Source of the DNA: Minisyncoccia bacterium
GTDB lineage: Bacteria > Patescibacteriota > Minisyncoccia > Phycocordibacterales > PALSA-1337
DNA length: 64,000 bases
Direction of reading: 5' to 3'
NCBI GenBank assembly: GCA_049997795.1
Contig: JBEKVT010000002.1
Coordinates: 129,664-193,663 of the forward strand
In this document: one piece after another, positions 51,719 to 63,669 of the stretch
Layout: each line of letters opens with the position of its first letter
Position numbering within the stretch: position 1 is the stretch's first letter
Program-made: the position numbers and the translations under genes
The notes under the pieces: model-generated
What the model saw: only the letters and a program-made list of their open reading frames with translations
Database searches by the model: none
What the model was told of the DNA's origin: nothing

Positions 51719-51782
51719 AAGGGTATTATATCAAGCCTTGCCTTATATGGACAAGCGCCCTGTTGAGGGGCGCTCGTCCGTG

Positions 51783-52114
51783 GGCGTCGCACATAAGCCG
51801 AATTCTGTTTGGACAACCATATCTCTAGGATGCGCGTCGCCGCGCATCTCAAGCGGTTCTCCGCCTGCCTTGCGGCAGACGGCACGACCTTGCACCGAGG
51901 TAAGGATTTGGCCGTTGCACCCCTCAAGTTTCCATGAGGGCTGATCCCGAAGGATCCGCCAGCCGTTTCCGGCCGGCGCGTCTCTGTTCGCACCTCTCGG
52001 ATCACCCGGACGGGCGTTACCCGCTACCCTGCTGCTCCCGCCTTGCGGCGCGGCCGGTGTTCGGACTTTCCTCACGCGGACGCGAGGCCCGCGCGCGGTT
52101 GTCTGTGCGACTGA
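51783..52114 (-). ncRNA. rnpB: RNase P RNA, bacterial type A
   Basis: The minus strand carries the universally conserved blocks 'GAGGAAAGUCCG', 'CAGGGUAGCGGGUAACGCCCGUCCGGG', 'GGUGCGAACAGAGACGCG', 'GGCCAAAUCC' and 'ACAGAAUUCGGCUUAUG'. P1 pairs as 'AGUCGCACA / UGUGCGACG'. The ends are approximate (+/-10 nt). Confidence 0.75.
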
Positions 52115-55741: not shown

Positions 55742-56365
55742 TCAATTTATGATCTGCCCTTTGTTCGCCAAGTCCGTCTCCGTGTCGGCTTCTTTCTCGC
55801 CCTCCACGACCTGCACGCCGATCTTGCGCTGGAGCATGAGCCGGATCTCGTCGGCCGTCTCCTTGTCGATCGGCTCGAGGACGATGTCCGTCTCGTTGTC
55901 CTCAGTCTTCTCTTCGTGCCCGGCCGAGTCTATGACGACTCTCGAGGTGCCGGTCAGCCGGTGCAGGAGGCTCCGTTCGACGTCCACGTCCTGCATCTGG
56001 CGGTACGGGATCGAGACGATGGTGGTGCTCACTATGCCCTGCTTCAGCTTCAGGTCGAATTCCTCGAAGGTGAAGGTGTAGTTGGCGTACTGGAGCTTGG
56101 CGATGACGAGGCCGACGATGCAGGCGAGGAGCGCCACGATGATAAGACCCATGATGAGGCCTCCCACTGTCCCGGAAACGGCTGCCGTAGCCCCTTTGGC
56201 GCCGCCTATTATAAGGACGCCGGCCAGGAACCCCGATATTGGGGCGCTCAAAACCATCAAAACGACGGCTATAAGCAATATAACCAGCCCCGCCGTCATT
56301 TTCCGCGATGCCAGGAGCAGGTATGCCTTCCGTCCCAGCCGCTGTTCTTGGTTTAAGGGGATCAT
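55742..56365 (-). CDS. Bacterial PH-domain (bPH_2 / YdbS-YdbT-like) membrane protein
   Basis: Two TM helices, then 'TFTFEEFDLKLKQGIVSTTIVSIPYRQMQDVDVERSLLHRLTG', the bPH_2 signature. Confidence 0.6.
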   Translation of the reverse strand: MIPLNQEQRLGRKAYLLLASRKMTAGLVILLIAVVLMVLSAPISGFLAGVLIIGGAKGATAAVSGTVGGLIMGLIIVALLACIVGLVIAKLQYANYTFTFEEFDLKLKQGIVSTTIVSIPYRQMQDVDVERSLLHRLTGTSRVVIDSAGHEEKTEDNETDIVLEPIDKETADEIRLMLQRKIGVQVVEGEKEADTETDLANKGQIIN

Positions 56366-56380
56366 AGGATGATTATACTA

Positions 56381-56842
56381 CTAAGTTTCCAGAGTAGAAA
56401 TAAGCTCTTTCCAATAGTTCATGACGTTTTTAAAAATTTTAATAATGAACAAGGTTGAGCCATCGATTTTCAGTGTTAAGAATGACGTGGTGATAGCCGA
56501 AAGACCTGAGGCAAAACCATCCTCTTTTTGTGCAACTTGAATATCATTATGATGGCCGTCTGAATGTTTTGTGTGAGTTGCTAATTCCTGGATGATTTTA
56601 AGATCAGGGCATTTTGAAAAAATAAAATTGTGGAAGTCATTTATATCTTTTATTCCAAATTTAGATTGTAATCTTGCTTCCTCAGATGACCAAACCCAGT
56701 CTTTCTGGTGCCAGAGAATAATAGAACATGTTAAAGCTTCCTTTACATCCAACTGGCTTTTTAAAAAATCTTCGTAATTAGGTACTAGAATATTTTCAAA
56801 ATAATCTCTCGCCGTATTTATTCCAAAGGTAGCGGTGCTCAT
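56381..56842 (-). CDS. Hypothetical 153-aa protein encoded in a low-GC (~35%) segment
   Basis: The composition drops abruptly relative to the flanking sequence. No recognisable motifs ('ARDYFENILVPNYEDFLKS...'). Confidence 0.5.
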   Translation of the reverse strand: MSTATFGINTARDYFENILVPNYEDFLKSQLDVKEALTCSIILWHQKDWVWSSEEARLQSKFGIKDINDFHNFIFSKCPDLKIIQELATHTKHSDGHHNDIQVAQKEDGFASGLSAITTSFLTLKIDGSTLFIIKIFKNVMNYWKELISTLET

Positions 56843-56894
56843 GTTTATTATTAGCTGCGCGGTACGATGTTGGAGCTTATTTTACCAAGGGGGT

Positions 56895-57206
56895 TTAATC
56901 ACCCTTGTAATTTTCCAGCTTCTTTTTCCATTTCTCAACTTCTTTCCAAAAGCCACAAACGCTGGTGAACAAAATCACAAAGAAAATCGTTATGGGGATA
57001 AAAATTATTTTCAAGACAATGATTCTCCATTCTGTGAGATGATTAAAGCCGTTATAGGTATACCATGCAGTAATGATTAATCCGCTGATCCAAAGACAAA
57101 ATAGCATCCAAGCATATCTGATTATCTCTACAAGTATTTTCATTAGACGTCTTATCATTTCTATGTTTGTGAGACTTGGACTCGAACTAATCAAATCTTC
57201 TAACAA
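56895..57206 (-). CDS. Small 2-TM membrane protein in the low-GC segment (track start is TTG; an internal ATG gives an 87-aa protein)
   Basis: Two hydrophobic helices 'AWMLFCLWISGLIITAW' and 'IIVLKIIFIPITIFFVILF', then a Lys-rich tail. Confidence 0.45.
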   Translation of the reverse strand: MLEDLISSSPSLTNIEMIRRLMKILVEIIRYAWMLFCLWISGLIITAWYTYNGFNHLTEWRIIVLKIIFIPITIFFVILFTSVCGFWKEVEKWKKKLENYKGD

Positions 57207-57404
57207 AACTATTTCTGGCGGCAGTTTTTACTTGAAGTTCGAACTTTTTTCGCCGAAAATCCGTGCCCATGAATCATTGCGCCTTCGCTCCGCTTGGCGC
57301 TCGGAAAAGGGCGGACGGCGGCCGGGGGTGTGGGGGTTCCTCTTCGTTTTCGCGCGCCGCCCTGCTGATTTTTTCGGGGGCGATTCGGAACAAGATCCAA
57401 GTTA

Positions 57405-57437
57405 CCTGTGGCTCATTTGGTGGATTTGAGCCACAGG
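57405..57437. repeat. Perfect 11-bp-stem hairpin 'CCTGTGGCTCA-tttggtggatt-TGAGCCACAGG'
   Basis: Read directly. It is one of two inverted copies of the same palindromic element. Confidence 0.55.
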
Positions 57438-57632
57438 CATTTTAGCACAGGTTTGGGAGGCTCGAAGCGGCCCACTTCCGCTTCAGATAGAGTTCTGTAG
57501 CGCGTTCGGCGTCAGTCCGTGTGGCTCCATTGCATTTCGCCGCACCGACATTCCGCCAGACGCGGATGGCAGTTGATGGAAGAAGCGGAAGTCGGCCGCT
57601 TCTCGGCGGAAGTTGGTGGTGAATCTGAAACA

Positions 57633-57665
57633 CATGTGGCTCATTTCCACCATATGAGCCACAAC
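57633..57665. repeat. Second copy, inverted, of the TGTGGCTCA hairpin element: 'TGTGGCTCAT-ttccaccat-ATGAGCCACA'
   Basis: The loop is the complement of the first copy's loop. It lies immediately 3' of the wHTH gene and may serve as its terminator. Confidence 0.5.
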
Positions 57666-57670
57666 TGGGT

Positions 57671-58228
57671 TTAGTGAAGAAACTGGTACTTGGCATCGCG
57701 CGGGTTTCCCGCGCGTGCAAGGTGGCCTTGCTGGACTAACTTGACCAGATATCTCGTTGCTGTGGCGCTGGAGATGTGCAAGGTCTTCTGCACATCTTCG
57801 TTGGCTATGATTTTCTTTTTCTGTGCCAACAGAATGATCTTGTCGAGCTTCTTCTGTTTGTTTGACTGGATTTTTGCATTCGCTTTGGCGAGCAGAGCGC
57901 GGATGAAGCCGGTCTGGTCTGGTTGCGCCGGCGATTGCGCCTGTGGCACTTGCGGAGTCGGTGCCGCCGGCGCGGACACAGGAGGTGGCGCAGGTTGTAA
58001 TGGTTCAGAAATCGGCTCAGACGCAGGTTCTGTTGTTGGCTCATCTGTCGCAGGCACTGTCATCTGATCTTCGACTGGAGCAACTGGCACAGATTCAGTA
58101 GGTTCAGAAATTGGTTCAGAAACCGGAGTGTTATCAGTTACCATTTCTACTTGAGCAGGTTCTGGCGCAGGAACCTCTGAAACCACCGGTTCAGCTACTG
58201 GCGCGCTTTGAGCATTTTCATCATCCAT
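57671..58228 (-). CDS. Winged-helix DNA-binding protein with a long acidic Pro/Glu-rich N-terminal region
   Basis: The C-terminus 'IIANEDVQKTLHISSATATRYLVKLVQQGHLARAGNPRDAKYQF' is wHTH-like. The N-terminus holds 'PVSEPISEP' repeats. Confidence 0.5.
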   Translation of the reverse strand: MDDENAQSAPVAEPVVSEVPAPEPAQVEMVTDNTPVSEPISEPTESVPVAPVEDQMTVPATDEPTTEPASEPISEPLQPAPPPVSAPAAPTPQVPQAQSPAQPDQTGFIRALLAKANAKIQSNKQKKLDKIILLAQKKKIIANEDVQKTLHISSATATRYLVKLVQQGHLARAGNPRDAKYQFLH

Positions 58229-58301
58229 GGAGATATTTTAGCATCAAAATAGGTCTATTTTTGAGCCTCCATAGAGCCACCGCATGAGCATGCTATTGGG
58301 C

Positions 58302-58330
58302 TTGCAATTTACATGGAGCTATGGTATAAT
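58302..58330 (+). promoter_or_regulatory. Sigma-70-type promoter (TTGCAA - 17 nt - TATAAT) upstream of the DMT transporter
   Basis: Perfect -10 and near-consensus -35 with a 17-nt spacer. A GGAGG RBS lies at 58381. Confidence 0.5.
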
Positions 58331-58390
58331 ACTAGAGTAGTTTCAAATAGTGATTTTTAACAATAAACCCTTAACCCTACGGAGGTCCAA

Positions 58391-58801
58391 ATGGATGGTT
58401 TACAAATCAAGGCCCTACTAGCTGGCCTATTCTTCGGATTGTGGCCGCTACTTATGAACAAGAGCGGACTCAATGGCAATGTTTCGGCGATGGCATTCGC
58501 TGGTCTGGTGTTGTTATTCGTCTCCCCTTTTGCCTTGAGCAACATCGGAGATCTTTCCAACACCAAATGGCTCATGGTCGTCGGAGCAGGCTTGTTCGGT
58601 GCCCTCGGCGTCATGTCCTTCAACGGCATGCTTGCCAAGGCAACCCCGCAGGCGGTGAGCACGCTCTTTGTTCTGATGATTGTGGTGCAAACAGCCGTTC
58701 CGGCTGTGTATCAAGTCATCATGAACGGTGGGCTTTCGCTCACCAAAGGATTAGGGTTTGCGCTCGCGGCGATCGCCGCGGTGCTACTCGTCAAGTCCTG
58801 A
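58391..58801 (+). CDS. Small 4-TM EamA/DMT-superfamily (SMR-like) transporter
   Basis: 136 aa, four hydrophobic helices. A terminator-like 'GCGAGGCGGGTTTTCTTTTTG' follows at ~58835-58860. Confidence 0.55.
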   Translation: MDGLQIKALLAGLFFGLWPLLMNKSGLNGNVSAMAFAGLVLLFVSPFALSNIGDLSNTKWLMVVGAGLFGALGVMSFNGMLAKATPQAVSTLFVLMIVVQTAVPAVYQVIMNGGLSLTKGLGFALAAIAAVLLVKS

Positions 58802-58914: not shown

Positions 58915-59631
58915 ATGAAAAACCGTAACTTTTTCTTTCAACAATACGACAAAATCAATTGGGCGAATCAAGACAAGACGAATCTGAACGTCGCTGTATA
59001 CCAGCACTTGATCGAGAACATCATCTCCAAGAAAGATGGGCCTTTTAAGCTATTCGATGTGGGCTCTGGTATAGGATTATTTATCCGACTGCTCAAGGAA
59101 AAGTTCGGCAATTCTGTCCGCATCGATGGCTGTGAGCCGTCGAAAAAGAGCTATGACTATTTTATGAAGAGTGACATAGATAAGACTAACGTCACGATAT
59201 ATCCTGAAACGTTCCAAAACATCAAAACAAATGAGAAATTTGATTTCATAACCGCAATATATGTCTTTCCGCATTTTATAGAAGCGGATTTAGGCAAGGT
59301 CGCACAAAAAATATCCAGCATGCTCAATGAAGCTGGAAAGTTGATCATCGTGGTCTCCAATGAAGAATATTTACGAAATAAGTTAGAGACTAAAAAAGAT
59401 CTCTTTATCGAAAAGAATGTAATCGAATTTAAGGGCAAGGAGTATAAGGAATATCTGCACTATGTCGAGATTCCTGATATGGGAACTGTCATAGATTACG
59501 ATAGAGAAGAAGATTACTATAAAGATTTGCTGGAGGATAACGGGTTGAGATTTGTGAAAAAGGACAAGATAAACAGCGACGAATACATCTGCACCATATT
59601 CACTTTTGAGAAAGGCGAACTCACTAAGTGA
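58915..59631 (+). CDS. Class I SAM-dependent methyltransferase (low GC, ~37%)
   Basis: Motif I 'LFDVGSGIGLF'. Motif II-like 'FDFITAIYVFPHF'. Confidence 0.65.
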   Translation: MKNRNFFFQQYDKINWANQDKTNLNVAVYQHLIENIISKKDGPFKLFDVGSGIGLFIRLLKEKFGNSVRIDGCEPSKKSYDYFMKSDIDKTNVTIYPETFQNIKTNEKFDFITAIYVFPHFIEADLGKVAQKISSMLNEAGKLIIVVSNEEYLRNKLETKKDLFIEKNVIEFKGKEYKEYLHYVEIPDMGTVIDYDREEDYYKDLLEDNGLRFVKKDKINSDEYICTIFTFEKGELTK

Positions 59632-59678
59632 TCGCAAATAACGGCACTGATTCTAGCCCGTGGCAAAAGTAGCGGAAT

Positions 59679-60230
59679 ATGCTAATGTTTTATGCAATGA
59701 AATACCATCTAGGGGAAGCATACGATTTCTATAAGAAATTCATATACAACAAGGAAAAGCAGACTCTGCTCGCAGAACGCAATCTTCACGTCGCCGGAAG
59801 CGTTCCGTCCGTGGACTGGGAGCTGTTCGGCGCTATTCTCACCGGCGATGACGGCAAGGGCGGCTATGGCTCAGATCTCAAGCGTCACGAGATCAAATCG
59901 TCCGTAAGCGGCGCGAGCTTCGAATATCAATATCACTTGAACGGCGGCATGAAGAAGCTCGCCGACGACATGAAAGTCGACCACATCTTCATCTCATACA
60001 GCCCAGACTACAGAGACATCGAGGCGCGAGTCATCAAGGGAACCGTCCTGAAAAAGACCTTCAAGGGCTGGGAGCCGGGATTGATTGAGAACTACGCAGG
60101 CCCGAACAGGAAACAACGCTATCGCCGTAGTATCTCGTACGGGACGGTCAAGTCCGACGGCAAGCTTATACTGAAAATTGAACAGGGCGAGCTCGTCCAA
60201 GACGAAGCGTCTGTTGCAACGAAGAAATAG
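59679..60230 (+). CDS. Putative Type II restriction endonuclease (PD-(D/E)xK fold), convergent with the C5-MTase
   Basis: 'GSDLKRHEIKS' fits a D-x(n)-E-x-K catalytic core. 183 aa. Its 3' end overlaps the methyltransferase 3' end by 65 nt. Confidence 0.45.
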   Translation: MLMFYAMKYHLGEAYDFYKKFIYNKEKQTLLAERNLHVAGSVPSVDWELFGAILTGDDGKGGYGSDLKRHEIKSSVSGASFEYQYHLNGGMKKLADDMKVDHIFISYSPDYRDIEARVIKGTVLKKTFKGWEPGLIENYAGPNRKQRYRRSISYGTVKSDGKLILKIEQGELVQDEASVATKK

Positions 60231-61377
60231 AATTCAGATAGTGATTGCCTAGCCACTCCAAGACTGGCACGCAGACGGCATCGCCGAAGCCGAAAAGGAC
60301 ATCGTTCAAGGAAAGATCTGGATTTATCTTGAATTCATCAGCACCCATCAATCTGGCGGCCTCTTTTCCGTTTATCAGGCGCGCATCAATCTTTCCCCGG
60401 CCAGCTCTCACGATTATCTGCCTTGCACTTCCTCCTTTCGGGGTACGCAAACAGCCAGCGATTCCATCTGTACGCAACTCGGCAGTCGAGAGCGACTTAC
60501 CGTTGCGAACCCTCATCCGGCGAAATACAGTGAAATAGGAATATCTCGATTCTTTCTTTTTTGCTTCCAGAATGATCTTATGCCTGTCGTGCATTTGGTC
60601 ATACAGATATTCGGTTCTTTCTTTTTCCCACCATTCCGCCGAGGGATCGACTATCTCTTCGAGAGAAATCTGCCGTTGCGGCAGGTTCGGCAAGGAATGA
60701 AAATACCATTTCAGATCGGCGTTAGCGGAGATATATTCGGCTATCTTCTCCGGTCGAGCATTTGATGACCCGAGATTATGTTGTTGCGACAATATGTCAT
60801 CGGCCAGGCCAGATACGTTCACGGCCGAACTGTGCACGCCGACTACGAATATCCTTACGCGGCTTTGCGGCACGAAGTTCGCACCGTTGATCATGATGAG
60901 GTCCACCAGATATCCCAGCTCATTGAGTGAGCTAAGGACGGCTCTCAAGTCCTTCCCTTGATTTGACGAAAGCAGGCCTTCGACATTCTCCACGAGAACG
61001 AACGGGGGTTTCCCATCTCCGCGCTCCGCACGCATCTCCTTCAGAATGCGTAGGAAGTGCCAAAATGCCGACGACTCTCCGGCGTGTATTCCTCCACGCG
61101 CTCCGGCGACCGAAAGATCAGTGCAAGGAAACGAGGCATGGGCCAGCATCACGTCAGGAACGTCCTTTCCTTTAACGTCTGCGATGTCGCTTACGTGGTA
61201 GTGGCCTTGGCCGAAATTATTCTCATACGCGGCCGCCTTCGCTTTCTCATAGTCAAGGGCATAGACCGTTTTCCAGCCGGCTTTCTCAAGTCCCATCGTG
61301 ACAAGACCGATGCCGGCGAAAAAATCAGCGACTGTCTTTTCTTTCATCTTCGGTTTTGTAATGCTCATTGATAACAT
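60166..61377 (-). CDS. DNA (cytosine-5)-methyltransferase
   Basis: Motif I 'DFFAGIGL', motif IV 'FPCTDLS', motif VI 'ENVEGL', plus a C-terminal target-recognition domain. Confidence 0.9.
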   Translation of the reverse strand: MLSMSITKPKMKEKTVADFFAGIGLVTMGLEKAGWKTVYALDYEKAKAAAYENNFGQGHYHVSDIADVKGKDVPDVMLAHASFPCTDLSVAGARGGIHAGESSAFWHFLRILKEMRAERGDGKPPFVLVENVEGLLSSNQGKDLRAVLSSLNELGYLVDLIMINGANFVPQSRVRIFVVGVHSSAVNVSGLADDILSQQHNLGSSNARPEKIAEYISANADLKWYFHSLPNLPQRQISLEEIVDPSAEWWEKERTEYLYDQMHDRHKIILEAKKKESRYSYFTVFRRMRVRNGKSLSTAELRTDGIAGCLRTPKGGSARQIIVRAGRGKIDARLINGKEAARLMGADEFKINPDLSLNDVLFGFGDAVCVPVLEWLGNHYLNSISSLQQTLRLGRARPVQFSV

Positions 61378-61483
61378 TTTATCAGATAATGATTGAAATG
61401 GATAAGGTGCTTATATTATAGCCGATGCGTAAAGGCCGTCAAGGGTTATTGCACTATTTCAAAGAGTATGCTATCATACGACT

Positions 61484-62155
61484 ATGATGCATAAAATACA
61501 GGAAAAACTGCTAATGCTCTCGAAAGAGAGGAACCTCGGCCAGCACTCGTTGCGCCAGATCGGCGAGATGGTAGGCGGAGCCTCCCCGCAGACTATAAAG
61601 CACCACCTCAATCAGCTTGAAAAGAAAGGGCTGATACGGGTGGACAAGGCAAAGGGCCTCGTTGAAAAGACCAAGCCCGGCTGGGCAGAGACATCGATGA
61701 AGAATGCCCGGCTCCTGGTCCTTCCGATACTCGGCGGCGCGAATGCTGGTCCGGCCGTCATAAATGCCGAAGAGAACATCGAGGGCTATCTGCGAGTATC
61801 GAACAGCATCGTCGGCAGGAAAAGCGGGGACGGGCTTTTCGCCCTTCGCGTAAGCGGCCCGTCCATGAACAAGGCCTCGTTCGATGGAAAGACGATCGAG
61901 GACGGCGACTACATCATCGTAGACGGCAAGGATCGTTCGCCGCGCGACGGAGATATCGTTCTTTCCGTAATAGACCGTATGGCGAATGTGAAGCGTTTCC
62001 ATTTCGACAAGGACAGCGGGCAAATCGCCCTTGTGTCGGAATCGACGCAGAACTTCCCCCCGATCTACATGCATCAGAGCGACGACTACATGATCAACGG
62101 CAAGGTCGTGCAGGTCATTAAAAAGCCGAAAACTAACTCTCAACCCTCGTCATGA
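61484..62155 (+). CDS. lexA: LexA-like repressor (N-terminal wHTH plus C-terminal S24 autopeptidase)
   Basis: Collinear with LexA. wHTH 'LRQIGEMVGGASPQTIKHHLNQLEKKGLI'. Cleavage region 'LPILGGANAGP'. 'LRVSGPSMNK' holds the catalytic Ser and 'VKRF' the Lys. A promoter-like TTGCAC-17-TATCAT and the palindrome ATCATAcgacTATGAT lie upstream. Confidence 0.8.
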   Translation: MMHKIQEKLLMLSKERNLGQHSLRQIGEMVGGASPQTIKHHLNQLEKKGLIRVDKAKGLVEKTKPGWAETSMKNARLLVLPILGGANAGPAVINAEENIEGYLRVSNSIVGRKSGDGLFALRVSGPSMNKASFDGKTIEDGDYIIVDGKDRSPRDGDIVLSVIDRMANVKRFHFDKDSGQIALVSESTQNFPPIYMHQSDDYMINGKVVQVIKKPKTNSQPSS

Positions 62156-62658
62156 TTTCAATATATTCAGCGCTCGGAACGATCTCGACCTTCGACGGCG
62201 TCGTTCATGTAATCATCGGACTCATCGTCGCTTCCGCATTTCTAGCCGCATTTTCTGTTTTTTTCTTCAAAAAAGAGATCCGGCTATTCCTGAATCGCCG
62301 ACGGCCGATAAAGATATTCATGGCTGATGGCGTGAATATGGGAGCGGAGGTGGAAATGCTTCGTAAAAGCAAGCTATTCAAAATAGAGGAACCGACGACC
62401 GACCATAGGCAATGCGACGGCATTGGAAACCACAGCCTTATTATCATCGGCTATAAACGCCAGATGGCCGGACTCTCCGATATCGTCAACGCCGCGCGCA
62501 CAGCAAAGATTCCGGTAATCGTTTACGCAAAGGAACAGCTCGAGGAAACCGATAAGAGCCTCTTGAACAGCTATTCCTGGCATTCAGTCTGCAATTTCCC
62601 TCTCAAGCTCATGAATGACGTGTTTACCATATTATCAACGTTCCCTAAAATGAAATAA
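62152..62658 (+). CDS. Single-TM protein with a Rossmann/CheY-like (possibly SLOG/TIR-like) cytoplasmic domain
   Basis: Its ATGA overlaps the lexA-like stop. N-terminal TM, then alternating beta/alpha elements 'IKIFMADG...SLIIIGY...IPVIVYAKE'. Confidence 0.45.
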   Translation: MISIYSALGTISTFDGVVHVIIGLIVASAFLAAFSVFFFKKEIRLFLNRRRPIKIFMADGVNMGAEVEMLRKSKLFKIEEPTTDHRQCDGIGNHSLIIIGYKRQMAGLSDIVNAARTAKIPVIVYAKEQLEETDKSLLNSYSWHSVCNFPLKLMNDVFTILSTFPKMK

Positions 62659-62661
62659 GCC

Positions 62662-63669
62662 ATGACAACATCAGAATATTTCGAGAAGCTCCTAGACCGA
62701 GTCAATCTGAAGATCGACGATGACGAACGCAAAATGATAGAAGAAAAACATAACGGCTTTCGTGAGATGTTGCTCGCCAAGCTGCCCTTGAAGGACGATT
62801 TTCTTACAGGCTCATATCGCAGACATACGATTATCAAGCCCAGAAAAGACGGAGACAAATTCGACGTCGATGTTTTCGTGGCTTTTGATAAAGAGGATTA
62901 TGGCGAGAAAGAGCTCGCTGAACTGCGAGGCGAGGTAGCCGAGGCCTTGAACGCTATCAAGGATGAAAATCCTGAGCTTGGCATCACGAATGTAAACGAT
63001 AGCCAACGGCGATCTGTGTGCGTCGAATTCGGCAACAACTTCCGAATAGATGTCGTGCCCTCGATCGAGATCGAAAAGGACAAGCTCTACAAGATATTCG
63101 ATCGACGGACTCTCAAAGCAATCAAATCAAACCCAAAATTGCACGCGGCTCTTTTGAGCGAAGCGAATGAGAAGACCGGCGGCAGGCTTGTGCCCGTCAT
63201 CAAAATCCTGAAAGGATGGAAGCGCGTCAAGTGCGATTATGTTAAGTCCTTTCACATCGAGATGCTGGCATTGGACATATTGGGCAACGCTGAAATATCG
63301 TCATATGCCGAAGGGGTCGCCAAATTCTTTTCCGATGCCGGATCAAAGCTTCAGAAGGCTTCCCTGGCAGACCCAGCCAACAAGGAACACTATATCGACG
63401 CATATCTGGACGATGACGGGAATCGTCAACGGCTTCTTGGCATTATCGCGACCGAGGATGACGCTGCGTGTCGAGCGCTCGATGCCGAGAAAAGGGAAAA
63501 CGGAGATCCGGTCAAAGAGTGGGAATCTATATTTGAAAACGCTGATACGGATATCGCCAAAGCCATAGAGAGCGGCAGCTTTGCCATGGGTATCGGAGGC
63601 ATCCGGGTGGGCGGAACAACAAGCCATGGCAGATCAATCAAATCACCAAATTCCTGGAGAGCCGACTAA
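62662..63669 (+). CDS. Minimal nucleotidyltransferase of the SMODS / cGAS-DncV-like (CD-NTase) type
   Basis: 'GSYRRHTIIKPRKDGDKFDVDVFVAF' (GS...[DE]hD NTase core) and a downstream 'FRIDVVPS' third acidic residue. A helical C-terminal domain. It starts 3 nt after the preceding gene. Confidence 0.55.
   Translation: MTTSEYFEKLLDRVNLKIDDDERKMIEEKHNGFREMLLAKLPLKDDFLTGSYRRHTIIKPRKDGDKFDVDVFVAFDKEDYGEKELAELRGEVAEALNAIKDENPELGITNVNDSQRRSVCVEFGNNFRIDVVPSIEIEKDKLYKIFDRRTLKAIKSNPKLHAALLSEANEKTGGRLVPVIKILKGWKRVKCDYVKSFHIEMLALDILGNAEISSYAEGVAKFFSDAGSKLQKASLADPANKEHYIDAYLDDDGNRQRLLGIIATEDDAACRALDAEKRENGDPVKEWESIFENADTDIAKAIESGSFAMGIGGIRVGGTTSHGRSIKSPNSWRAD

What the first reader, a model, noticed from the sequence alone, without database searches (positions are those of the whole stretch)
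56381..57206. Very low-GC two-gene module (2TM micro-protein + 153-aa unknown protein) inserted between host genes
At ~35% GC these two minus-strand genes are the most AT-rich coding sequence in the window. They encode an 87-103-aa two-helix membrane protein and a soluble protein with no recognisable family. They are preceded by a 460-bp hairpin-dense leader. The architecture (a small membrane protein plus a partner of foreign composition, next to a defence island) resembles toxin/abortive-infection or holin-like modules. The function is unknown.
Basis: inference. Interest (0 to 1): 0.55.

Follow-up and report, generated by a model that had tools for sequence, protein, structure and literature searches.

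The report
AT-rich islet with orphan defence-island gene
A 0.85-kb stretch of foreign, AT-rich DNA beside a phage-defence island carries a real gene from an undescribed protein family found in the mobile and defence regions of many bacteria, plus a small membrane ORF with no relatives; it is not a recognisable toxin or holin system.

Summary
Window 56378-57218 is the most AT-rich part of the window (GC 0.34, GC3 about 0.30, against 0.59 and about 0.8 for host genes). It holds two minus-strand ORFs.

- **153-aa ORF:** a real gene. HMMER finds about 290 cluster representatives. An AlphaFold model built on their alignment has pLDDT 90. K92-H93 is invariant, and H45, D/E48 and W49 are nearly so. 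No Pfam, NCBIfam, PADLOC or PDB sequence match exists. The only recurring fold hits are weak ones to HEPN toxins.
- **Family distribution:** members are scattered over at least six phyla, on plasmids, in prophages and in defence islands. Neighbours include CBASS with CapH/CapP-like regulators, DRT6/4, Shedu, R-M, HepT-MNT and PIN. The gene is AT-richer than its flanks in 37 of 38 loci.
- **No conserved neighbour:** the 2-TM ORF has no homologue outside this organism, and its length alone is only marginally significant. The "two-gene toxin/holin module" is therefore not supported as a system.
- **The leader:** the 460-bp "leader" belongs to the upstream wHTH gene, not to the islet. It is conserved in relatives that lack the islet.

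Best reading: horizontally acquired cargo encoding a stand-alone, probably enzymatic conflict-system protein of unknown activity. Interest is moderate to low.

The parts
56378..57218 (-). AT-rich islet (about 0.84 kb, GC about 0.34) holding the two ORFs
   Evidence: GC profile. The upstream edge is fixed at about 57218, where homology of the leader with relatives ends. The downstream edge comes from composition only: the GC jump between the 153-aa stop at 56381 and the bPH_2 start at 56365.
56381..56842 (-). 153-aa gene, a member of an uncurated 'KH-dyad' family. The AlphaFold2 model has four helices, a three-stranded sheet and a C-terminal helix. K92 and H93 are invariant.
   Evidence: About 290 representatives at E<=1e-3. 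Alignment A1. Conservation over 131 members. AF2 pLDDT 90.2 and pTM 0.85. An ORF this long appeared in 0 of 2000 shuffles.
56550..56573 (-). 24-bp in-frame segment missing in one population allele (contig L001). It removes residues 91-98, including the invariant K92-H93.
   Evidence: The intact allele is on contigs L039-L043.
56895..57206 (-). Orphan ORF of 82-103 aa with two hydrophobic segments and a Lys/Glu-rich tail. It is a plausible but unproven gene.
   Evidence: The only match is its own cluster P0162, 100% identical, from the same organism. Length reached by about 5% of shuffles.
57218..57670 (-). Conserved, GC-rich, structured spacer that belongs to the upstream wHTH gene, not to the islet. 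In order: hairpin A, hairpin B, core, B', A', a terminator-like hairpin, then a conserved 45-nt motif.
57335..57336 (-). Site of a 17-bp deletion specific to the window's allele. It removes the 5' arm of the terminator-like hairpin that sits between the wHTH unit and the islet.
   Evidence: Fold energy is -34.2 kcal/mol with the 17 nt and -12.3 without.
57671..58228 (-). 185-aa protein with a low-complexity N-terminus and a C-terminal winged helix. It is the conserved partner of the structured spacer.

Best explanation
The block is a small piece of horizontally acquired cargo at the edge of a strain-variable defence island.

**153-aa gene.**
- It encodes a genuine, folded protein from an undescribed family. 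The family travels as a single gene on plasmids, in prophages and in defence islands of many phyla, without a fixed partner.
- The conserved residues are an invariant Lys-His dyad at the end of helix 4, a near-invariant His and Asp/Glu one turn apart on helix 2, and a frequent Arg.
- Inference: these residues suggest an enzyme or a specific ligand-binding pocket. The most likely activity is a nuclease- or phosphodiesterase-type effector (possibly a degenerate HEPN-like RNase) that acts alone in phage, plasmid and host conflict.

**2-TM ORF.** It is a lineage-specific ORFan that came with, or arose in, the same AT-rich DNA. If it is expressed, it may modulate or anchor the 153-aa protein. No comparative evidence links the two.

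**Upstream structured region.** It is an independent element conserved across the lineage.

**Shown:** foreign composition, gene reality, family extent, conserved residues, variable defence- and MGE-rich contexts, and absence of a conserved partner.

**Inferred:** enzymatic activity, a role in defence, and any link to the TM ORF.
For: **Composition:**

**Family:** 290 representatives. K92 and H93 are 99% conserved, D/E48 98%, W49 93% and H45 87% over 131 members. AF2 pLDDT is 90.2.

**Distribution:** 29 genome loci in Acidobacteriota, Cyanobacteriota, Bacteroidota, Pseudomonadota, Actinomycetota and Gemmatimonadota. There are also Agrobacterium, Rhizobium, Shinella and Bradyrhizobium plasmids and two viral contigs. 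Three members match phrog_33893.

**Contexts:**
- Directly after HTH plus ImmA/IrrE, beside CBASS, Abi, PLD and AbiEii.
- Next to Shedu DUF4263, PstI-type R-M and a recombinase.
- HepT/MNT about 2.2 kb away.
- 3 bp upstream of a Drt6/Drt4 reverse transcriptase.
- After PDC-S46, and after PIN_12/PDC-S34.
- Next to an integrase fragment.
- One member is fused to a type I HsdR C-terminal fragment.

**AT bias:** the family gene is AT-richer than its flanks in 37 of 38 loci, median -4.5 GC points. It often sits in islets of 1-1.5 kb.

**Partner:** no conserved neighbour.

**Fold:** the only recurring group among PDB fold hits is HEPN toxins and MNT-HEPN, with probability 0.14-0.41 and TM 0.34-0.46.
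Against: - No biochemical or genetic data exist.
- No fold or sequence match is significant. The best PDB Foldseek E-value is 0.28, and there is no PDB, Pfam or PADLOC profile hit.
- The canonical HEPN Arg is absent. The motif lies at the C-terminal end of a helix, unlike the position I recall for HEPN (start of helix 4; not checked here).
- The defence association rests on partly annotated neighbourhoods and has no statistical background.
- Several contexts look unremarkable: PPDK and HIT in L005, and hypothetical-rich plasmid regions in L064 and L065.
- One population allele lacks the invariant dyad. This could mean the gene is dispensable or decaying here.
Confidence: 0.55

Rival explanations
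1. A true two-component abortive-infection or toxin-antitoxin module. The 2-TM protein would be a membrane-depolarising toxin or effector, and the 153-aa protein its sensor, activator or antidote (or the reverse). The two would be co-transcribed.
For: The two ORFs are on the same strand, 52 nt apart, share the same foreign composition and lie beside a defence island. The TM ORF has two TM segments and a charged tail, like small membrane effectors. A few other family members have membrane ORFs next door: L013, L029, L038 and L068.
Against: The TM ORF has no homologue anywhere outside this organism. No neighbour family recurs with the 153-aa family. The rate of membrane-protein neighbours looks no higher than the share of membrane proteins I would expect among genes in general (my estimate, not measured here). 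The TM ORF's length is only marginally unlikely by chance.
Confidence: 0.12
2. An anti-defence or regulatory gene carried by mobile elements, for example an inhibitor or sponge directed against CBASS or another system. On this view the block is left over from a plasmid or prophage rather than being a host defence gene.
For: The family occurs on plasmids and in prophage-like contigs, and three members match a PHROG. CBASS lies nearby in the window and on the Agrobacterium plasmids. The protein is small and stands alone.
Against: Many copies are chromosomal and sit among several different defence systems, not in phage early or anti-defence regions. There was no match in 50,697 phage records with two queries. 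An invariant K-H dyad with an H/D pair looks more catalytic than sponge-like, but that is only an inference.
Confidence: 0.13
3. Functionless debris. The islet would be a decaying remnant of an old insertion, its genes are no longer used by this host, and the TM ORF is a chance ORF in AT-rich DNA.
For: One allele has lost the invariant dyad. The TM ORF is an ORFan of marginal length. No integrase, repeats or target-site duplication flank the block.
Against: The 153-aa ORF is intact on five of six independent contigs from several samples. It keeps every family-conserved residue except conservative changes. The one deletion seen is in-frame.
Confidence: 0.15
4. A holin-like lysis cassette.
For: The small 2-TM protein has a highly charged C-terminal tail.
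Against: There is no endolysin, spanin or phage structural gene nearby. The 153-aa family has no muralytic signature. The TM ORF hits no holin family in Pfam or PHROGs.
Confidence: 0.03

Closest known systems
Stand-alone HEPN / Abi-type RNase toxins (HepT, AbiV, AbiU2 and similar)
   Same: Small, largely helical proteins encoded singly or in variable pairs in defence islands and on mobile elements. The conserved motif [DE]-[ILV]-A-N-G-x-K-H has Asn and His at the same spacing as the R-N-x-x-x-H of many HEPN families (my reading of the motif, from memory of those families). HEPN toxins are the only recurring group among the PDB fold hits.
   Different: The defining Arg is missing; the position holds Ala, Thr or Cys. 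The basic residue sits immediately before the His. In the model the motif ends a helix rather than starting one. The protein has an extra three-stranded sheet. No Pfam HEPN model matches any of 56 members. hhalign against a HepT sequence finds nothing. Foldseek TM scores are 0.34-0.46 with E>=0.88.
Genes co-regulated with CBASS by CapH/CapP (HTH + ImmA/IrrE peptidase)
   Same: On two Agrobacterium Ti plasmids the homologue starts 17 nt after an ImmA/IrrE gene. That gene forms a divergent HTH + peptidase pair next to a patatin / CD-NTase / ThiF CBASS operon. CapH/CapP is described as a DNA-damage-responsive regulator of CBASS (bioRxiv 10.1101/2022.04.27.489752, abstract). The window copy lies 5 kb from a CBASS operon.
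   Different: This arrangement appears in one plasmid lineage only. In the window there is no ImmA/IrrE gene next to the islet, and CBASS has its own HTH gene. Most family members have no CBASS nearby.
Class II-type holins and small membrane toxins
   Same: 82-103 aa, two hydrophobic segments and a charged C-terminal tail.
   Different: No homologues, no lysis genes, and no phage context.
Low-GC genomic islets (horizontally acquired cargo in defence hotspots)
   Same: An abrupt GC and GC3 drop confined to the two ORFs. The block sits next to R-M, CBASS and methyltransferase genes of mixed composition. Assemblies from other samples break just upstream.
   Different: No integrase, tRNA or direct repeats mark the ends. 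No empty site was found in a relative.

Membership tests
HEPN superfamily | Rx4-6H catalytic motif | tested here: not met
   The family motif is [DE][ILV]A[ND]GxKH. The position five residues before the His is Ala, Thr or Cys, not Arg.
HEPN superfamily | Four-helix up-and-down bundle detectably similar to solved HEPN domains | tested here: inconclusive
HEPN superfamily | Match to a curated HEPN profile | tested here: not met
   No Pfam family at E<=0.1 is shared by more than 2 of the 56 members, and none is a HEPN family. There is no PDB profile hit at E<=10. hhalign against a HepT sequence gives probability 0.07.
Toxin-antitoxin / two-gene Abi module | The same gene pair recurs together in unrelated genomes | tested here: not met
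   Neighbour clustering by blastp and phmmer finds shared neighbours only among near-identical loci. The TM ORF is absent from all other family loci.
Holin / lysis cassette | Small TM protein with a charged C-terminus | tested here: met
   Two hydrophobic windows and a KEVEKWKKKLENYKGD tail.
Holin / lysis cassette | Adjacent endolysin and phage context | tested here: not met
   Pfam, PHROGs and PADLOC scans of the neighbours found no muralytic or phage structural genes.
Known anti-phage defence systems (PADLOC-DB 2.0) | Match to a system component model | tested here: not met
   No hit for the window proteins. Of the 56 family members, one has a weak TIR hit at E=0.00046 and one a PycTIR hit at E=0.0071.
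Defence-island gene (guilt by association) | Homologues enriched next to known defence genes | tested here: inconclusive
   Many positive examples: CBASS, Drt6/4, Shedu, R-M, HepT-MNT, PIN/PDC-S34, PDC-S46 and AbiEii. No background-corrected statistic was possible, and only part of the loci could be annotated.
Horizontally acquired islet | Composition deviating from the host | tested here: met
   GC 0.34 against 0.59, and GC3 0.30-0.33 against about 0.8.
Horizontally acquired islet | Mobility marks (integrase, att repeats, empty site in relatives) | tested here: not met
   No flanking repeats and no adjacent tRNA. Relatives that share the wHTH-leader unit have different genes downstream, but none shares the bPH_2 side, so no empty site was recovered.

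The most novel reading that the evidence does not exclude
The 'KH-dyad' proteins are a new single-gene anti-phage or abortive-infection family. On this reading they are a catalytic nuclease-like effector, perhaps a HEPN derivative in which Lys replaces the canonical Arg. The gene would be kept silent or regulated in defence islands (CapH/CapP-controlled on Agrobacterium plasmids), and the KH-deletion allele in this population would be an escape from its toxicity.
Probability: 0.2. Interest if true: 0.6.

Novelty: new member of a known kind. Interest (0 to 1): 0.33.

Why it matters
If the family proves to be an active defence or toxin gene, it would add a compact (about 150 aa), widely dispersed and currently unannotated component to the bacterial immune repertoire. 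It has a clear catalytic-looking dyad to mutate. As it stands, the result mainly turns an "ORFan pair" into two things: one well-defined uncharacterised family and one unsupported ORF. It also shows that the striking upstream hairpins belong to a different, lineage-conserved element.

Tried and rejected
- **Word-index homology search with the single protein** found only the same organism. The exhaustive HMMER search was needed to find the family.
- **Single-sequence AF2** was useless, with pLDDT 40.7.
- **The search for related loci** failed with alignments A1 and A2 because no stretch was conserved enough. It worked with A3, which omits the window protein.
- **Phage records:** tblastn with two queries found nothing. 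A third family query against plasmids also found nothing.
- **Pfam scans:** ten small neighbours, tested as possible HTH antitoxins, gave nothing. Longer family members gave only one EcoEI_R_C fragment.
- **hhalign:** against a HepT sequence it found nothing. Against an NFFKH-containing neighbour in L005 it gave E 0.054, which is not significant.
- **Rfam** at E<=1 found nothing on 56800-58400.
- **Flanking direct repeats** around the islet: none found.
- **Promoter and terminator scans** were no better than shuffles.
- **dN/dS** was impossible, because all population contigs are about 100% identical.
- **Host organism:** not identified.

Full report
**1. Observation.**
- The two minus-strand ORFs are present: 153 aa at 56381-56842, and a 2-TM ORF at 56895-57206 with possible starts at 57206 (TTG), 57158 and 57143 (ATG).
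- The window averages 0.575 GC, and 0.588 over its first 52 kb.
- The two ORFs have GC 0.344 and 0.335, with GC3 0.325 and 0.295. The adjacent bPH_2 and RNR genes have GC3 0.81 and 0.88.
- The lowest-GC 800-bp windows of the whole sequence lie at 56351-56501. The methyltransferase at about 58900 comes next.
- An ORF of 153 codons never arose in 2000 shuffles of the block. One of at least 87 codons arose in 5.2%. The larger ORF is therefore secure by length alone and the TM ORF is not.
- The TM ORF has two hydrophobic segments and a Lys/Glu-rich tail.

**2. The 153-aa protein is real and belongs to a family.**
- Curated libraries are silent: Pfam, PADLOC, PHROGs and NCBIfam.
- The word-indexed search found only a 95%-identical protein from the same organism.
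- The exhaustive HMMER scan of 1.84 billion representatives found 290 proteins at E<=1e-3 and 21 at E<=1e-10. Most are 145-180 aa and align end to end.
- In an alignment of 56 members, K92 and H93 are invariant. Over 131 members the figures are K92 99%, H93 99%, D/E48 98%, W49 93%, H45 87%, W144 85%, G109 82% and R34 64%. The signature is [DE][ILV]A[ND]GxKH.
- AlphaFold2 on this alignment gives pLDDT 90.2 and pTM 0.85. The model has helices 11-28, 33-62, 67-77 and 80-90, the KH dyad just after helix 4, three strands at 104-132, and a helix at 133-152.
- None of the 56 members matches a shared Pfam or PADLOC family. Three match phrog_33893, of unknown function.
- A profile search of all PDB sequences finds nothing at E<=10.
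- Foldseek against PDB has no hit better than E 0.28. The only recurrent group is HEPN toxins and MNT-HEPN proteins, at probability 0.14-0.41 and TM 0.34-0.46.
- BFVD gives one unnamed phage protein at E 2.9e-3.
- RefSeq calls the Agrobacterium homologues "hypothetical protein".

**3. Distribution and context.**
- A pattern scan of one genome per species returned 29 confirmed loci. They lie in Acidobacteriota, Cyanobacteriota, Bacteroidota, Alpha-, Beta- and Gammaproteobacteria, Actinomycetota and Gemmatimonadota.
- tblastn finds copies on Agrobacterium, Rhizobium, Shinella and Bradyrhizobium plasmids. Two copies are on viral contigs.
- On two Agrobacterium Ti plasmids the gene starts 17 nt after an ImmA/IrrE peptidase gene. 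That gene, with an HTH gene, lies divergent from a patatin / CD-NTase / ThiF CBASS operon. An Abi gene, a PLD protein and AbiEii follow. The HTH and peptidase pair matches the CapH/CapP arrangement described for CBASS regulation.
- Other contexts:
  - Shedu DUF4263, a PstI-type R-M system and a recombinase.
  - HepT/MNT.
  - A Drt6/Drt4-type reverse transcriptase starting 3 bp after the gene.
  - PDC-S46.
  - PIN_12/PDC-S34.
  - An integrase fragment.
  - One member fused to a type I HsdR C-terminal fragment.
- Some contexts are unremarkable.
- The gene is AT-richer than its flanks in 37 of 38 loci, with a median of -4.5 GC points and a maximum of -19. It often sits in an islet of 1-1.5 kb.

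**4. No conserved partner.**
- Clustering the three neighbours on each side by blastp, and the two on each side by phmmer, links only loci that are near-identical overall.
- The neighbour immediately upstream or downstream varies: a 267-aa protein, a PIN protein, an RT, a 183-aa helical protein, a 4-TM protein, or housekeeping genes.
- The window's TM ORF matches only its own cluster (P0162), found on contigs that are 100% identical to the window. It matches nothing in any other family locus.
- The "2TM + partner" architecture is therefore peculiar to this organism. It is not a system.

**5. The leader is a separate element.**
- The hairpin GTGGCTCA-N11-TGAGCCAC occurs twice in the spacer, in inverted orientation. 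It also occurs on 18 metagenome contigs.
- In at least 14 of those contigs, the C-terminal half of a homologous wHTH gene and the spacer are conserved at 71-86% DNA identity. These contigs come from related organisms of lower GC (0.41-0.50). None of the other window genes is present on them.
- Homology stops at window ~57218, exactly at the GC drop.
- The distal 286 nt fold to -131.6 kcal/mol (z -9.0). An eight-sequence alignment shows a conserved core with compensatory changes and a variable apical insertion.
- The loops of the outer hairpins are flipped in some relatives.
- There is no Rfam match at E<=1.
- A GC-rich terminator-like hairpin lies between this element and the islet. It is intact on other contigs of the same population but has lost its 5' arm in the window through a 17-bp deletion.

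**6. Population variation.**
- Six other contigs from different samples carry the locus at about 100% identity.
- One (L001) has a 24-bp in-frame deletion at window 56550-56573. It removes residues 91-98, including the invariant K92-H93.
- Two assemblies (L039, L041) end at or within about 46 nt of the 17-bp indel site at 57336, and two others (L040, L043) end 17-89 nt downstream of it. This points to strain heterogeneity at the edge of the defence island.

**7. Mechanism.**
- Shown: the DNA is foreign, the gene is real and folded, it has a conserved polar constellation, it is mobile and scattered, it often lies in defence- or MGE-rich neighbourhoods, and it has no fixed partner.
- Inferred: the protein works alone and its conserved H/D and K-H residues form an active or binding site. 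The most economical guess is a nuclease- or phosphodiesterase-type effector in inter-genome conflict, possibly a HEPN derivative. In the motif A-N-G-x-K-H the Asn and His are spaced as in R-N-x-x-x-H, but the Arg is missing.
- I put about 0.55 on the descriptive explanation and about 0.2 on a true defence-effector function.
- The rivals each have some support and are listed with their tests: a two-component Abi/TA module, an anti-defence gene, decaying debris, and a holin.

**8. Comparison and novelty.**
- The protein fails the testable HEPN membership criteria (motif and profiles), and the fold test is inconclusive.
- The pair fails the recurrence criterion for a TA or Abi pair.
- The TM ORF meets only the trivial holin criterion.
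- The block is best filed as a new, uncurated family of small accessory proteins of the kind that populate defence islands. That makes it a new member of a known kind of genomic feature, not a new kind of system.
- Interest is moderate to low unless the dyad proves catalytic.

Noticed in passing
window 57218-57997 (-); L044-L060: A wHTH gene with a low-complexity N-terminus, plus about 450 nt of GC-rich, highly structured non-coding sequence, forms a unit. The unit is conserved at 71-86% DNA identity in at least 14 metagenome contigs of related low-GC organisms, where the downstream genes are unrelated. The core shows compensatory changes and a variable apical insertion. There is no Rfam match. 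It is a candidate lineage-specific structured RNA or DNA element.
   Followed up: partly
window 57408-57434 and 57636-57662; L044, L046, L054, L060: The 27-nt hairpin GTGGCTCA-N11-TGAGCCAC has its loop (GGTGG or CCACC) in either orientation in different relatives. In some the two copies are swapped, and in others both point the same way. This suggests small inversions between the stem arms, or a motif read on either strand. The hairpin also occurs alone on other contigs (L055, L061).
   Followed up: partly
window 57335/57336: The window's allele lacks 17 bp (GGGCGGCCGGCGACCTT) that are present on four other contigs of the same population. The missing bases form the 5' arm of a GC-rich terminator-like hairpin (-34 against -12 kcal/mol), so read-through into the AT-rich islet may differ between strains.
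   Followed up: partly
window 56550-56573; L001: One population allele carries a 24-bp in-frame deletion, flanked by TCA microhomology. It removes the family-invariant Lys-His dyad of the 153-aa protein.
   Followed up: yes
window 58915-63669: A defence island with these parts: a low-GC (0.38) SAM methyltransferase with a mad2-like PADLOC hit; a 183-aa ORF with no family that overlaps tail-to-tail with a Dcm-type C5 methylase (a possible R-M pair); an HTH protein; and a CBASS operon made of a TM effector (PDLC01057) and a CD-NTase.
   Followed up: partly
L018 4920-7042; L015, L016: In Alphaproteobacteria MAGs the family gene ends 3 bp before a Drt6/Drt4-type defence reverse transcriptase (E 5e-133). 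In two related loci the RT is fragmented.
   Followed up: partly
L005 6010-6561: The gene just downstream of one family member encodes a 183-aa helical protein with an N-F-F-K-H motif. It aligns weakly (hhalign E 0.054) with the family's A-N-G-x-K-H region and may be a distant paralogue.
   Followed up: partly
window 51782-52111 (-): The class A RNase P RNA scores only 106 bits against a gathering threshold of 100, which suggests a divergent lineage. The host organism was not identified.
   Followed up: no
L039-L043 ends, corresponding to window 57247-57382: Four independent assemblies from different samples end between about window 57247 and 57382, in the proximal leader around the 17-bp indel site. 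This is consistent with strain-level heterogeneity or repeats at the boundary of the defence island.
   Followed up: partly
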